From: a virus
Taxonomy: Duplodnaviria; Caudoviricetes
Length of the DNA stretch: 64,000 bases
Reading direction: 5' to 3' (one strand)
Virus record (IMG/VR): IMGVR_UViG_3300042465_005116
Location: 128,001-192,000 of that record
In this document: piece after piece, positions 1,561 to 11,676 of the stretch
How the letters are laid out: every line of letters starts with the position of its first letter
Position numbering within the stretch: the stretch's first letter is position 1
Notes under the pieces: generated by a model
Seen by the model: only the letters and a program-made list of their open reading frames with translations
Database searches by the model: none
Told to the model about the DNA's origin: nothing
Program-made: the position numbers and the translations under genes

Positions 1561-2676
1561 TTAATGTGAATCTTCTACATTATGTTTTTCTGCAAAGATT
1601 AAATAATCTGGGTTAATAACTTTTGCAATCTTTTGTCTTTCGCCGGTTTGGTGTTTGATTACAATTCCTTCCTCTGGTACTTTTGTATTTGGAATAAAAT
1701 TATTGAATGTGTATTTATCTTGTACTTCTTGTGACCAACTTCCGTAGTGTAAAATTTCTACATAAGGTAATTCCAAAATATCTTTAATCAGTAACCTAGC
1801 ATTAATAACACTTAAATACTCACTATTCTCTTTTACATCGAATCCTACGAACTTAATCTCCGTTAACCCATAATCATATCCCTTTTGGATTCCCGCTCCG
1901 TAAATCTCACCATATAAGGTAATACCATCACCAATCTCCGGCTCCATTGTATTACTCTTAACATAATCCCACAACTTATTTTTGATATCGTATTTCCTTT
2001 CAATATCATACCAAACATTGGTATCATAGAATCCTTGAGAATCAGAGCCTTTCTCTACATTATGTGAACCAACTACAAATTCATATTCAGTCCATTTGTT
2101 ACCAAACAACTTTTTAATTCTATCTAATATAGATAATTTAGTTTTCTTAACAATACCATAACGAGCATTTGTTCCGTGAATCTTACGAGTAATTTCCACA
2201 GTGTCATCTTCAGTAAACATTCCCGGTACATTTTTTAAGTTAGGAAACTTATAGTAGACATGAAAGTGTGGGTTATCTTGATAACGAATCTTTCTACCAC
2301 TTGCTAATTGAACCATTTTAACTGGTGGTTCATATTTGTAAATACCTAAATAATCCATCATATCATCACCTTCACTAACGATTGGTGTTAACGTATATGG
2401 AATAATTAAAGACTCACTATAAACTCCTCTTAACTTAACAGTTCTAACCCTACCACCATTACGAAGATAATTGGTTACTCCTAATTTTTCGGATAAATCA
2501 AATGGAATTACCGCATCGGTTGTTGCACATATTACTAACTCACCAACATTATGAGCATCTTTTTTTACTATACAATTCCAACCACCAACTACTGCTAATT
2601 CAATATTATCAGCACCATCAATAGGTTTAATTTCATTTATTTTTGCCACATAGCAAACTGAATTATTATTTTCCAT
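1561..2676 (-). CDS. ATP-dependent RNA ligase (Rnl2/DRB0094-like)
   Basis: Nucleotidyltransferase motifs KIHG (I), YGEIYG (III), FVGFDV (IIIa), EGIVIK (IV), KVINPDY (V); likely start MENNNSVCYVAK at 2676. Confidence 0.85.
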   Translation of the reverse strand: MENNNSVCYVAKINEIKPIDGADNIELAVVGGWNCIVKKDAHNVGELVICATTDAVIPFDLSEKLGVTNYLRNGGRVRTVKLRGVYSESLIIPYTLTPIVSEGDDMMDYLGIYKYEPPVKMVQLASGRKIRYQDNPHFHVYYKFPNLKNVPGMFTEDDTVEITRKIHGTNARYGIVKKTKLSILDRIKKLFGNKWTEYEFVVGSHNVEKGSDSQGFYDTNVWYDIERKYDIKNKLWDYVKSNTMEPEIGDGITLYGEIYGAGIQKGYDYGLTEIKFVGFDVKENSEYLSVINARLLIKDILELPYVEILHYGSWSQEVQDKYTFNNFIPNTKVPEEGIVIKHQTGERQKIAKVINPDYLIFAEKHNVEDSH

Positions 2677-2677
2677 A

Positions 2678-2974
2678 TTATTTATTTTTAAATTGTTCAA
2701 ACCATTCTTTAAATGATAATTTACATTCAATTCCATCAGATACATTTGCTTTCCAGCAAGCCATAAATGATTCTGCCATATCTTCCTCACTATACATTCT
2801 TTCTTTAGATTTAACACCCACTCTAAATCCACTCCAAAAAATATTGGCTTCACGATTTAAATCTGATAGATTAGATTCTTTTTCAGTATCCTCAACCCAA
2901 TTTTCATACAATCCCAAATTCTCATCATATCTCATCATGTCAATGAGGTGTTGTTTTTGTTCTTCTTTTTTCAT
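2678..2974 (-). CDS. hypothetical protein
   Basis: 98-aa ORF abutting the ligase start. Confidence 0.6.
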   Translation of the reverse strand: MKKEEQKQHLIDMMRYDENLGLYENWVEDTEKESNLSDLNREANIFWSGFRVGVKSKERMYSEEDMAESFMACWKANVSDGIECKLSFKEWFEQFKNK

Positions 2975-3018
2975 AACTTTTCTATTTCTTAAAGGTTTCG
3001 TCGTAGTATTGTGTTCCT

Positions 3019-3531
3019 TTATAATTTAATCTCAAAACGATTTTTCATTTGTTCTAACTTATCAGCAGGAACTCCATGTTGATTTACTCCACCATGTCTA
3101 TTCTCTACTATAATAGTGAATACCATATAACCATACTTTTCAGCTAACTTAAAATATTCTTCCATCTCCCATTCTTGAGTAAATGTATTTGATACTACAA
3201 TCTCTGGATAGAATTGTGGATTGACTTCGTTATCTTTCATACGAATTTCGACTTGTTCTTTACACCACTTATGTGCATCTTTTATTTTAGAACCATCAAA
3301 ATTATAGTTTCCTTCTTTATCATAAAAGAATTTATCTGCTTCACAAATTGCGTAATCATTCCAAATGAATCCGGCTAATGTTGATTTACCACTTCCTGGT
3401 AATCCCCTTACTAATGTTAATACTTTTGGTATCATATATTTTATTTCTTGTTTATCAATAAACTCTTTTATAGCTTGTCGTTTTTCATCATTGAATACAT
3501 CTTCCAATTTAATTTCTTGTTTAGTTTCCAT
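3019..3531 (-). CDS. P-loop polynucleotide kinase-like protein (AAA_33)
   Basis: Walker A GLPGSGKS, EADKFF, VVSNTFTQEWEM, ENRHGGVNQHGVP; alternative start at 3435. Confidence 0.8.
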   Translation of the reverse strand: METKQEIKLEDVFNDEKRQAIKEFIDKQEIKYMIPKVLTLVRGLPGSGKSTLAGFIWNDYAICEADKFFYDKEGNYNFDGSKIKDAHKWCKEQVEIRMKDNEVNPQFYPEIVVSNTFTQEWEMEEYFKLAEKYGYMVFTIIVENRHGGVNQHGVPADKLEQMKNRFEIKL

Positions 3532-3537
3532 ACCATT

Positions 3538-4191
3538 TTATCTATAATTTTCAACTATTTCGTGGTGGTCAAACACAAACATACTTTTGATTGGTTGTTT
3601 ATTCATCAATCTTAATATCTCACTCATTTCAATTGGATACAATTCGTTTCCATCACATCCCACATCCATCATTTTACCCGAACCAATTCGTTTATCAGCC
3701 GGAAAGTGAACGTGTCCATGCAAATGGATAGCTCCCCTAGCCATATTATCCCAACTTGCTATTGGAAAGTGCATTAGAGCGAATCTTTGTTCTCCCATTA
3801 AAGGAGTCCCTACATTCCACTTAACAACTAAGTTTAAGTATTTGTTTACGGAACTAAATAACTTTTGACAACCTTCTTTATCACTTTCAATGTGATGGTC
3901 GTGGTTACCGGTAATGATGTGAACATTTTTACAAAAAATGCTATCTCTGAATTTTTGTATTTGTTCGAATCCTCCAAAACTCCAATCACCTAAATGGAAA
4001 AGGATATCATCCTGTTCAACCTTTTCGTTGATGTTAGCAATAAGGTGTGAGTTCATTTGTTCCAATGATATGAATTCTCTACACGTTACGGGGTCTGACC
4101 ATTGGGTTGTAGATGAACATATATTAGCATGGTTGTAGTGGGTATCACTTGTGAACCATAACCTTTGTCCTTTGTTTAGATTTAATTTCAT
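3538..4191 (-). CDS. calcineurin-like metallophosphoesterase
   Basis: SDTHYNH, HLGD, GNHD, HLHGHVH motifs. Confidence 0.85.
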   Translation of the reverse strand: MKLNLNKGQRLWFTSDTHYNHANICSSTTQWSDPVTCREFISLEQMNSHLIANINEKVEQDDILFHLGDWSFGGFEQIQKFRDSIFCKNVHIITGNHDHHIESDKEGCQKLFSSVNKYLNLVVKWNVGTPLMGEQRFALMHFPIASWDNMARGAIHLHGHVHFPADKRIGSGKMMDVGCDGNELYPIEMSEILRLMNKQPIKSMFVFDHHEIVENYR

Positions 4192-4336: not shown

Positions 4337-4385
4337 ATTATCGTTTAATCTAACGATAAAATCTGATATCGTTTCTTTCAACGAT

Positions 4386-4418
4386 AAAAAATAAGCAGGT
4401 GTGGAATCACCTACTTAT
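4386..4418 (-). terminator. intrinsic terminator
   Basis: ATAAGTAGGTG/CACCTGCTTAT hairpin followed by a T-run. Confidence 0.6.
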
Positions 4419-4474
4419 ATAGTGAATGAGAAACATATGAATCTCTTGCGGCTATATCACCAAAGCCCATTAGG

Positions 4475-4588
4475 TGCCGGAGGAAGGATTGGTTACCTAC
4501 ACGATTTCCTTACGGAGTAATCAACTTTTTACAAAGTCACGTCTCAAGGTTTACTACCCAAAGGGAATGCTCTTTCCGCCACTCCGGC
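4475..4588 (-). ncRNA. tRNA-Leu-like RNA lacking an anticodon loop
   Basis: Perfect 7-bp acceptor GCCGGAG/CTCCGGC plus A73; 35-nt D-loop; ACTTT-GTAA-AAAGT anticodon arm; long variable arm; degenerate T-loop. Confidence 0.6.
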
Positions 4589-4604
4589 ATATATCTTTTT
4601 TTTG

Positions 4605-6710: not shown

Positions 6711-6715
6711 ATATG

Positions 6716-6786
6716 TTGCGTGTTTGAGGTTTGAACTCAATTGGTCATCCTTATGAGAGATAACTCTTTTCCACTAAGCCACGCAA
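6716..6786 (-). tRNA. atypical tRNA (CAT), probable elongator Met
   Basis: Normal anticodon arm (CTCATAA) and T-arm, but the acceptor TTGCGTG/CACGCAA lacks the 8-9 linker. Confidence 0.6.
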
Positions 6787-8242: not shown

Positions 8243-9127
8243 AAAAAAATCTGGATGAGAATACTCCATCTTATGAACCAGCTTTATAAGGGTTATTGGT
8301 TACCTTAATTTCCACTACCTTTTGAGTAGTACCGATTCAATGTGGGTAAGTAATGCCTACCAATCATAAAGTTACAACCTACTCTCTTTTTACTCCGCCA
8401 CTTCGAATCTGCCGACCCGATTCACATCTCGCGATGCTAGAAGTTTTTCGAAAGAATCACATTTACCTTGAGAGTATTTGTGGCAGTGAACGACTCACTA
8501 CTATGTACACACCTTTCACTTGCAACTGGTAACCACTTTTTCTTTTATTTTTATTTGATTTTCACCATTGAAAGTAAAAGTTTTGGTTTGTAGAAGAATT
8601 CAAGTAGTGGATTACCACTAGCTCCGTTCCATTTTGAAGAACGGAATACTATACTACTCGATACGATATCCCTATCGTCATATTTTAAGTCTACTTCATA
8701 TCTAAACCTTTGGTAAAGTAAAGATAAGGATAATAACAACACCACTTGTACATCATCATACCTTTCGATTTTAAGTAAACTTTCATATTGAATCACGCAA
8801 TGATATGGAGAGATTAAGTCCGTACTTCTTGCAATAACTCTATGGATTATTCTTATTGGTGTCCCCACCTCAACTGAACTTCTACCTAGCCCAGTCATTA
8901 AACCATTTCACTACGGAGTTACCCTCACTAATCAGGTCTAATGATATTCCACTTGCATACTCAAGCTCCATTCCTTTCGGTCTGAAACCGCAAATTAATT
9001 AACCAACTAATTCACTTTATCCTACTTTCGTAGTTTATTTAACCACCATATGCGGCGGGTATGTACTATGTACCACAAGGATACTATGTACAATATGTTT
9101 CGATAATTTAAAGAACTTTTTTTTGTT
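8243..9127 (-). ncRNA. large ornate non-coding RNA, GOLLD/ROOL-like
   Basis: ~880 nt without a credible ORF, between a promoter (9132-9163) and a hairpin plus T7; many GNRA hairpins; next to tRNAs. Family not verified. Confidence 0.6.
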
Positions 9128-11507: not shown

Positions 11508-11676
11508 CTGTAAGAGGAGGATTCGAACCATCCACGATGCGATTCAGTAAGTAACACTTTCTCCGGCCGGATGGTGGTCTACCCCATATTACTTACCTAT
11601 TTCGTTCTCACCACCCCCGAGACAGGAGGGCTTGTCTACCCGGTCATACTGAGACAACCTTTTCCAACACCTTACA
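11508..11676 (-). ncRNA. 169-nt tRNA-like RNA with GTC anticodon and expanded D-loop and variable arm
   Basis: Acceptor TGTAAGG/TCTTACA plus G73, D-stem TTG/CAA, CCCTC-CTGTCTC-GGGGG arm, ~80-nt variable arm, GGTTCGAATCC T-loop. Confidence 0.65.

What the first reader, a model, noticed from the sequence alone, without database searches (positions are those of the whole stretch)
4475..4588. tRNA-Leu mimic whose anticodon loop is replaced by a GNRA tetraloop
Seen: it aligns arm-for-arm with the neighbouring tRNA-Leu(TAA) (same GCCGGAG-TG start, 3-bp D-stem, G26, long variable arm, A73). However, the anticodon arm is ACTTT-GTAA-AAAGT (4-nt loop), the D-loop is 35 nt, the variable arm also ends in GTAA, and the T-loop is TAACCAAT. 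The acceptor stem is perfectly paired, which argues against random decay. Known: bacterial LeuRS relies mainly on A73 and tertiary shape, not the anticodon. Inference: a non-decoding, possibly aminoacylatable tRNA mimic, for example a decoy for anticodon nucleases or tRNA-sensing defences, a Leu donor, or a scaffold.
Basis: partly seen in the sequence, partly recalled or inferred. Interest (0 to 1): 0.72.

Follow-up and report, generated by a model that had tools for sequence, protein, structure and literature searches.

The report
Self-pairing tRNA mimic of freshwater phages
This gene in the tRNA row of a large freshwater phage belongs to a conserved, apparently undescribed family of tRNA-shaped RNAs that cannot read codons and whose codon-reading loop has, in nearly all relatives, become a self-sticky palindrome that can only pair between two molecules, while the copy studied here is a rare variant with that loop sealed shut.

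Summary
Every described feature is present at 4475-4588 (minus strand). ARAGORN and Rfam miss it. I recovered 70 distinct homologs from large freshwater phages (probably Bacteroidota hosts); of the 51 whose neighbours I mapped, most lie just before tRNA-CAT. Acceptor, T and variable stems covary, so it is not a pseudogene. The GNRA tetraloop is not the family trait: only 2 of 70 have it, as a derived state. In 66 of 70 the anticodon position carries an open loop of about 8-13 nt with a palindromic hexamer. Six different palindromes occur, and the two adjacent central bases are complementary in 69 of 69. Adjacent bases cannot pair within one strand, so this points to loop-loop pairing between two copies. 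The D-loop insert usually carries a second self-complementary loop. G18G19 and the TPsiC loop are lost, and the gene always ends A-C-C-notA (70/70, versus 5/587 neighbouring tRNAs), so leucine charging is doubtful. Best reading: an RNase P-processed, probably uncharged, self-dimerising tRNA mimic acting on a host tRNA-binding protein; the target is inferred, not shown. The scan noted similar designs before on other DNA; sequence look-ups found no match to this family.

The parts
4475..4588 (-). tRNA-shaped non-coding RNA gene (G1 = 4588, discriminator A73 = 4475), derived from tRNA-Leu
   Evidence: Sequence; 70 distinct homologs; covariance model R1 scores it 89.7 bits and scores the tRNA-Leu(TAA) genes highest among ordinary tRNAs, 22-31 bits
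4582..4588 (-). Acceptor stem 5' strand (pairs with 4476-4482)
   Evidence: 99.7% of cells paired, 5 of 7 pairs with two-sided change
4539..4579 (-). D arm: 3-bp stem (4579-4577 with 4541-4539), A14-A15 and A20a-G21-A22 kept, G18G19 replaced by a 29-nt hairpin insert (4573-4545)
   Evidence: D stem 100% paired. In relatives the insert's loop is TGTACA (22), AGTACA (12), TTCGAA (14), TGGCCA (2), ACGCGT, CTCGAG or a U-GACG-A tetraloop (13); this copy has the rare CCC-TTT-GGG type (3); 2 have no insert
4523..4538 (-). Anticodon-position arm. Here zipped to a GUAA tetraloop (4532-4529); the family position of the palindromic hexamer is 4533-4528 (TGTAAA here: central TA kept, the C-G pair turned into G.A)
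   Evidence: loop self-duplex only -0.8 kcal/mol here against -4.6 to -10.3 in relatives
4503..4522 (-). Long variable arm with internal loop and CC-GNRA(N)-GG tip
   Evidence: Covarying stem pairs; GAAA tip in L106 and in an RNA-library contig (A>T at 4512)
4483..4500 (-). T arm with 8-nt loop U-(ANNC)-A-NN in place of TPsiC
   Evidence: U at loop position 1 and A at position 6 in all 69 rows with an 8-nt loop (these two are also parser requirements); 16 loop variants, none TTC
4472..4475 (-). 3' end A73-C74-C75 followed by a base that is never A
   Evidence: ACCT 55, ACCG 10, ACCC 5, ACCA 0 of 70; neighbouring real tRNAs: N-C-notC 523, NCCA 59, NCC-notA 5 of 587
4589..4592 (-). 5' leader ATAT (A-4, A-2, U-1), an RNase P-type leader
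   Evidence: A-4 in 69/69, A-2 66/69, U-1 59/69; real tRNAs of the same arrays have A-4 in 382/587 and all three in 158/587

Best explanation
A phage-encoded, non-decoding RNA that evolved from a tRNA-Leu gene (probably the UAG isoacceptor; the commonest loop UCUAGA still contains UAG). It keeps the tRNA core (acceptor stem, U8:A14, A15:U48, long variable arm, A73) but has dropped the standard elbow and anticodon. It is co-transcribed with the tRNA array and cut at its 5' end by host RNase P, using an optimal leader and a genome-encoded A-C-C end to make up for the lost elbow (inferred). In most members two copies pair through the palindromic loop at the anticodon position, as retroviral dimer-initiation loops do, and often also through a second self-complementary loop in the D insert, giving dimers or larger assemblies (inferred from covariation, about 0.8). 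It is probably not charged (about 0.6). The most likely job is to present tRNA-shaped acceptor arms that occupy a host tRNA-binding protein, such as a tRNA-cutting or tRNA-3'-end-attacking defence enzyme, while the paired loop offers no anticodon to cut or decode (about 0.35-0.4; pure inference). The copy in this window is a derived variant whose loop is sealed into a GUAA tetraloop and is predicted to be monomeric at this site.
For: Shown: 70 distinct homologs with covarying stems. Watson-Crick palindromic hexamer in 66/70: TCTAGA 37, TTCGAA 15, TCCGGA 6, ACTAGT 4, CCTAGG 3, TCGCGA 1; two more keep CTAG. No search pattern contained this loop; the 19 members from the last search, which did not use the T loop or 3' end either, were 19/19 palindromic and 19/19 ACC-notA. 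Adjacent positions 3 and 4 are complementary in 69/69 (TA 48, CG 20, GC 1) and rank with the real stem pairs in mutual information. 26 of 29 distinct loops hold a palindrome against a shuffle mean of 4.2, maximum 12 in 20,000. With the hexamer masked, the tree needs 17 hexamer changes; independent pairs go the complementary way 6/6 (positions 2-5) and 4/4 (positions 3-4). The same logic was validated by cryo-EM for OLE and GOLLD bridges (10.1101/2024.12.08.627333). RNase P pairs with R73-C74-C75 and stacks on the elbow (PMC11143913). Context: near-complete tRNA set, tmRNA, GOLLD and downstream RNA ligase, AAA_33 kinase and phosphoesterase genes, which I read as an RNA repair kit. RNA-library contigs of close relatives cover the element.
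Against: No binding, dimer, processing or charging experiment exists. The copy in this window and L106 lack the palindrome, 2 members lack the D insert, and some relatives with the same tRNA row lack the gene (L003, L018, L033), so dimerisation and even the gene are dispensable. Repeated palindrome switches on the tree could partly reflect recombination in mosaic tRNA arrays, and many branches are unsupported. No partner protein or defence system was identified. A CC end is also a normal substrate for the host CCA-adding enzyme, so a charged form is not excluded. The RNA coverage comes from contigs only, which cannot give ends, strand or level.
Confidence: 0.55

Rival explanations
1. A purely structural RNA multimer, like the GOLLD and ROOL cages that also sit in phage tRNA arrays. 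The tRNA shape is kept only for processing and stability; two different self-complementary loops build rings or filaments with no host protein target.
For: Two independent self-complementary loops per molecule in most members; GOLLD in the same array of all seven member loci where the flank reached it; symmetric kissing loops build the OLE and GOLLD assemblies.
Against: Members without the D insert, or with both loops closed as in this window, persist with an intact core. The invariant A73-C-C-notA end and leucine-type core suggest protein recognition. The element's palindrome does not track any GOLLD palindrome.
Confidence: 0.2
2. One reading: a leucine-charged, non-decoding tRNA that serves as a Leu donor, or as a charged decoy.
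For: A73, A15:U48, U8:A14, A20a and a long variable arm are kept; the anticodon arm is dispensable for E. coli LeuRS (PMC9976931); a CC end can be completed by the host CCA-adding enzyme (established knowledge).
Against: G18G19 are essential and D/T-loop disruption abolishes leucylation in E. coli; both are missing here. Genomic A76 never occurs in 70 sequences despite 9 changes at that site, while 67% of neighbouring C-only tRNAs have A there. The host LeuRS may differ from that of E. coli.
Confidence: 0.15
3. An unusual decoding tRNA, for example an amber suppressor (loop UUCUAGA contains CUA) or a four-base decoder.
For: The commonest loop contains UUCUAGA, which could be read as a CUA anticodon.
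Against: The stem is only about 3 bp and the loop about 8-13 nt. The triplet is not conserved (TTCGAA, TCCGGA, TCGCGA, TGTAAA variants). There is no TPsiC loop. The window uses TAG as an ordinary stop (10 of 65 long ORFs).
Confidence: 0.03
4. The palindrome acts at DNA level (protein site or mutational artefact), or the gene is a decaying tRNA-Leu duplicate.
For: Hexamer palindromes are typical of DNA-binding sites; the gene is absent from some relatives.
Against: A protein site would keep its sequence, not swap among six palindromes. All four stems covary. Relatives show no build-up of uncompensated changes in the acceptor stem (1 of 315 cells unpaired).
Confidence: 0.04

Closest known systems
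Bacterial class II tRNA-Leu (Rfam RF00005; identity set reviewed in PMC9976931)
   Same: Acceptor stem start, U8:A14, G13.A22 3-bp D stem, A15:U48, A20a, long variable arm, A73; model R1 picks tRNA-Leu(TAA) as the nearest ordinary tRNA
   Different: No G18G19, no TPsiC loop (8-nt loop), hairpin insert in the D loop, 3-bp stem with a palindromic loop of about 8-13 nt instead of an anticodon arm, end always CC-notA
Symmetric kissing loops of OLE (L9.3) and GOLLD (L21a) RNAs (10.1101/2024.12.08.627333) and retroviral dimer-initiation loops, including GACG tetraloops (PMC516450)
   Same: Palindromes that switch to other palindromes, including at adjacent bases; an open loop with a central hexamer; GACG tetraloops in 13 members
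   Different: Here the loop sits on a 90-130 nt tRNA scaffold at the anticodon position; no structure or dimer has been observed; no Rfam match to those families at this place
Phage T4 stable RNAs species 1 (rnaC) and species 2 (rnaD)
   Same: Non-decoding stable RNA genes inside a phage tRNA cluster, function unknown
   Different: No sequence likeness (model R1 finds nothing in the T4 locus L102); rnaC keeps a normal GGTTCGAATCC T arm
YrlA Y RNAs (PMC4201824), allo-tRNAs and tRNA-Pyl (PMC7609411)
   Same: tRNA mimic or non-canonical tRNA; tRNA-Pyl also lacks G18G19 and TPsiC
   Different: From my own knowledge YrlA has a Ro60-binding stem and a closed acceptor hairpin; allo-tRNAs have 8/4 or 9/3 stems and real anticodons; this RNA is 7/5 with free acceptor ends and no anticodon. 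No Rfam hit

Membership tests
Decoding tRNA (RF00005) | 5-bp anticodon stem with 7-nt loop and a conserved anticodon | tested here: not met
   About 3-bp stem, loop of about 8-13 nt, triplet not conserved; tetraloop in this copy
Decoding tRNA (RF00005) | G18G19 in the D loop and TPsiC T loop | tested here: not met
   Absent in all members, including 19 found without a T-loop filter
Decoding tRNA (RF00005) | 7-bp acceptor plus 5-bp T stem, discriminator, tRNA-like leader | tested here: met
   the second T-stem pair is a mismatch in 23 of 45
LeuRS substrate (E. coli rules) | A73, A15:U48, A20a | tested here: met
   Invariant or nearly so in the alignment; note A15 and the AGA of the D loop were part of most search patterns
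LeuRS substrate (E. coli rules) | G18G19 and D/T-loop tertiary contact | tested here: not met
   Missing; requirement from PMC9976931
LeuRS substrate (E. coli rules) | Mature 3' CCA and measurable leucylation | not testable with these tools
   Gene ends ACC-notA in 70/70; no raw small-RNA reads were available (one search listed contig runs only)
Self-kissing (homodimer) RNA loop | Palindrome in an unpaired loop that covaries to other palindromes, including at adjacent positions | tested here: met
   Met for the family (66/70; 69/69 at the adjacent pair); not met for the window's own copy
Self-kissing (homodimer) RNA loop | Physical dimer formation | not testable with these tools
   Only duplex energies were computed
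GOLLD, ROOL, OLE, YrlA and other Rfam families | Match to the family covariance model | tested here: not met
   No relevant hit at gathering score or at E<=10 over the element
T4 rnaC/rnaD | Sequence or structure homology | tested here: not met
Allo-tRNA (8/4, 9/3) | 12-bp acceptor domain in 8/4 or 9/3 form | tested here: not met
   7/5 arrangement in all core members; definition from PMC7609411

The most novel reading that the evidence does not exclude
A natural tRNA-shaped building block with two different self-complementary loops that assembles into RNA-only dimers, rings or filaments, presenting several uncharged CC-ended acceptor arms at once as a multivalent trap for a host tRNA-targeting defence protein; the sealed GUAA variant of this window would be its monomeric form.
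Probability: 0.15. Interest if true: 0.9.

Novelty: new variant of a known kind. Interest (0 to 1): 0.7.

Why it matters
Phage tRNA arrays are central to the conflict over translation, and this adds a conserved RNA family that standard tRNA finders and Rfam miss. It carries unusually clean evolutionary evidence of pairing between molecules on a very small tRNA scaffold, so it is an easy target for native gels and cryo-EM, with natural controls: six orthogonal palindromes, members with one or two sticky loops, and the sealed variant in this window. The strict CC-without-A end, opposite to the C-only rule of the neighbouring tRNAs, gives a direct handle on how a tRNA mimic is processed yet kept out of translation. 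If it neutralises a defence enzyme, it would be an RNA-only counter-defence.

Tried and rejected
GNRA tetraloop as the family hallmark: rejected (2/70). Invariant TAACCAAT T loop: this was an artefact of my first search patterns; a search without it gave 16 variants. Amber suppressor: rejected (loop variation; TAG is a stop). Pairing of the loop with GOLLD: no matching or covarying palindrome. Watson-Crick pairing of the T loop or of base 76 with another part: no such signal among the top mutual-information pairs. One unexplained signal, loop 3' flank against the base before the variable-arm CC (66/69 complementary), may be kinship and was not tested. Phage-encoded CCA-adding enzyme: none in four member genomes. 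No homolog among 50,697 GenBank phage records or in Flavobacterium phage immuto_3-5A, the closest cultured relative by one protein. Of 62 pattern hits among 185,579 prokaryote genomes only one passed my structural filter, a 558-bp contig binned with Algoriphagus, which may be a misbinned phage piece. One search used a mis-registered structure and is superseded. One search stopped with an error at its last locus; one search repeated the count. RNA runs were contigs only, so ends, strand and level could not be read. Ten paper searches found no description. The supplement of the 10,006-candidate list (PMC10690425) is not held, so an unannotated entry there cannot be excluded. No whole genome is held for the window.

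Full report
Setting. The window is part of a large AT-rich phage. Its minus strand carries 24 tRNA genes and a tmRNA called by ARAGORN and a GOLLD RNA. Just downstream of the array lie a metallophosphoesterase, an AAA_33 kinase and an RNA ligase, which I read as an RNA repair kit (inference). Related contigs reach 207-289 kb. Three lines point to a Bacteroidota host: TAnnTTTG promoter motifs in front of the array, Flavobacterium and Cellulophaga phages as the closest cultured relatives of the neighbouring protein, and tRNA genes that encode C74 only, as in a Chitinophagaceae genome (26 of 29).

Observation. ARAGORN and Rfam give no tRNA call for it, even at E<=10. Folding alone is weak support (z = -1.9), so I looked for homologs.

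Homologs. Loci chosen only by the neighbouring protein gave 9 copies. Pattern scans of viral, metagenome and genome collections raised this to 51 distinct core sequences plus two distant ones. A last scan that ignored the T loop and the 3' end added 19, for 70 in all. Among the first 51, the gene usually sits just before tRNA-CAT, most often after tRNA-Ala. Some relatives with the same tRNA row lack it. In 45 aligned sequences 96.3% of cells pair and 13 of 20 pairs change on both sides; the acceptor stem has 1 unpaired cell in 315. This is purifying selection on structure, not decay. A covariance model of the family ranks tRNA-Leu(TAA) as the nearest ordinary tRNA, consistent with descent from tRNA-Leu.

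The anticodon position. The GUAA tetraloop is found only in this copy (identical to L009) and in L106. On a tree built with the hexamer masked, these two group with L248, a palindrome-bearing member with the same D insert (support 100/99), so the sealed loop is most simply a derived state. In the rest, a stem of about 3 bp holds an open loop of about 8-13 nt with a central palindrome: TCTAGA 37, TTCGAA 15, TCCGGA 6, ACTAGT 4, CCTAGG 3, TCGCGA 1; two more keep CTAG. No search pattern included this loop. Among 29 distinct loops 26 hold a palindromic hexamer, against a shuffle mean of 4.2 and a maximum of 12 in 20,000. The 19 later members were all palindromic. Positions 1-6, 2-5 and 3-4 are complementary in 67, 67 and 69 of 69 rows, and the 3-4 pair ranks among the true stem pairs by mutual information. 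The tree needs 17 hexamer changes, and independent pairs change in the complementary direction 6 of 6 and 4 of 4 times (the second is too few for a significant sign test, and recombination may inflate the counts). Adjacent bases cannot pair within one strand. The same argument identified intermolecular bridges in OLE and GOLLD that cryo-EM confirmed (10.1101/2024.12.08.627333). Computed loop self-duplexes are -4.6 to -10.3 kcal/mol for relatives but -0.8 for this copy. In register, this copy reads TGTAAA: the central TA is kept, the C-G pair became G.A, and the flanks zip up as U-A pairs.

The D insert. The hairpin that replaces G18G19 ends in TGTACA (22), AGTACA (12), TTCGAA (14), TGGCCA (2), ACGCGT, CTCGAG or a U-GACG-A tetraloop (13). 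GACG tetraloops contribute to retroviral RNA dimerisation (PMC516450). So most members have a second self-complementary loop. This copy has the rare CCC-TTT-GGG type, and two members have no insert.

Elbow and ends. The T loop has 8 nt (one member 9), with 16 variants and never TTC; my first impression that TAACCAAT was invariant came from my own patterns. The gene ends A-C-C followed by T, G or C in 70 of 70, with 9 changes on the tree and never A. Real tRNAs of the same arrays end N-C-notC in 523, NCCA in 59 and NCC-notA in 5 of 587. The leader has A-4 in 69/69 against 382/587. Bacterial RNase P pairs with R73-C74-C75 and stacks on the elbow (PMC11143913), so I infer that the encoded CC and the good leader compensate for the lost elbow. 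The absence of A76 suggests selection against a ready CCA end; this is moderate evidence, since the host enzyme could still add A. E. coli LeuRS needs G18G19 and the D/T contact (PMC9976931), so charging is doubtful. Four member genomes encode no CCA-adding enzyme.

Expression. In a freshwater metatranscriptome (run X1) contigs of close relatives cover the element, including the GAAA variable-loop variant, and a 99%-identical GOLLD contig is present. These are contigs from an RNA library; they show presence, not ends, strand or level.

Mechanism. Shown: a conserved, non-decoding tRNA-shaped gene whose anticodon-position loop is under selection for self-complementarity. Inferred with good odds: pairing between copies (0.8 for the family, not for this copy) and RNase P processing. 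Inferred with modest odds: uncharged state (0.6) and a role as decoy for a host tRNA-binding or tRNA-attacking protein (0.35-0.4), suggested only by the tRNA replacement set and repair genes around it. A purely structural multimer, as with GOLLD, is the main rival.

Known kinds. It works like a tRNA mimic fitted with a retrovirus-type or OLE/GOLLD-type symmetric kissing loop. It fails the membership tests for tRNA, allo-tRNA, T4 rnaC/rnaD and all Rfam families. Paper searches found no description; a prior unannotated entry in the 10,006-candidate list could not be checked. The scan's own notes describe tRNA-shaped RNAs with self-pairing loops in other phages. One of them, read together with my first homolog table, prompted me to look at the loops. 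Sequence look-ups found no match to this family outside this phage's own windows, and I did not test those notes.

Verdict. Observation confirmed; interpretation partly supported. A real and apparently undescribed RNA family, with the window holding an atypical sealed member. Interest 0.7; new variant of a known kind.

Noticed in passing
window 11508-11676 (-): A second unannotated tRNA-shaped gene: T arm GGTTCGAATCC, 5-bp stem with 7-nt loop CTGTCTC (GTC, Asp-like, G discriminator) and a structured variable region of about 80 nt containing CCGGCCGG. 49 distinct matches in my loci; missed by ARAGORN and Rfam.
   Followed up: partly
window 4385-4470 (-): Conserved cassette directly 3' of the element in this window and several relatives (15 distinct matches): a hairpin whose loop (GGTGA, or GATGA) appears to covary with a downstream TCAC or TCATC as a pseudoknot, an inner GAGA/TCTC hairpin, then a terminator-like stem with a T run. 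No Rfam family; could be a regulatory or self-processing RNA.
   Followed up: partly
window 6712-6785 (-): A divergent tRNA with CAT anticodon between tRNA-Cys and tRNA-His that ARAGORN and Rfam miss; 11 distinct matches in relatives.
   Followed up: partly
window 4340-4385 (-): Double AT-rich hairpin spacer before tRNA-CAT, also present in relatives that lack the element (L003, L018).
   Followed up: no
L085:2500-2581, L081:4257-4353, L087:902-1000, L090:4870-4970, L100:3020-3123, L215:356-486: Apparently unrelated phage and prophage loci carry other tRNA-shaped genes without G18G19 and with the same 8-nt T loop TAACCAAT (model scores 25-44 bits for five of them, L090 not scored); L085 encodes CCA, L081 and L087 have a CGGCCG palindrome in a large loop. 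The loop may be a recurrent substitute for the TPsiC elbow.
   Followed up: partly
tRNA genes of the window and of related arrays; L382-L411: Nearly all real tRNA genes encode C74 but mostly not C75 (523 of 587), as does a Chitinophagaceae genome (26 of 29). This suggests a Bacteroidota-specific 3' processing rule.
   Followed up: partly
window 8252-9040 (-): GOLLD RNA; in run X1 a 545-nt contig with only 5 differences covers it at depth about 1,860.
   Followed up: no
window 1561-4191 (-): RNA ligase with OB-fold domain, AAA_33 kinase and calcineurin-like phosphoesterase directly downstream of the tRNA array, a likely tRNA repair operon.
   Followed up: partly
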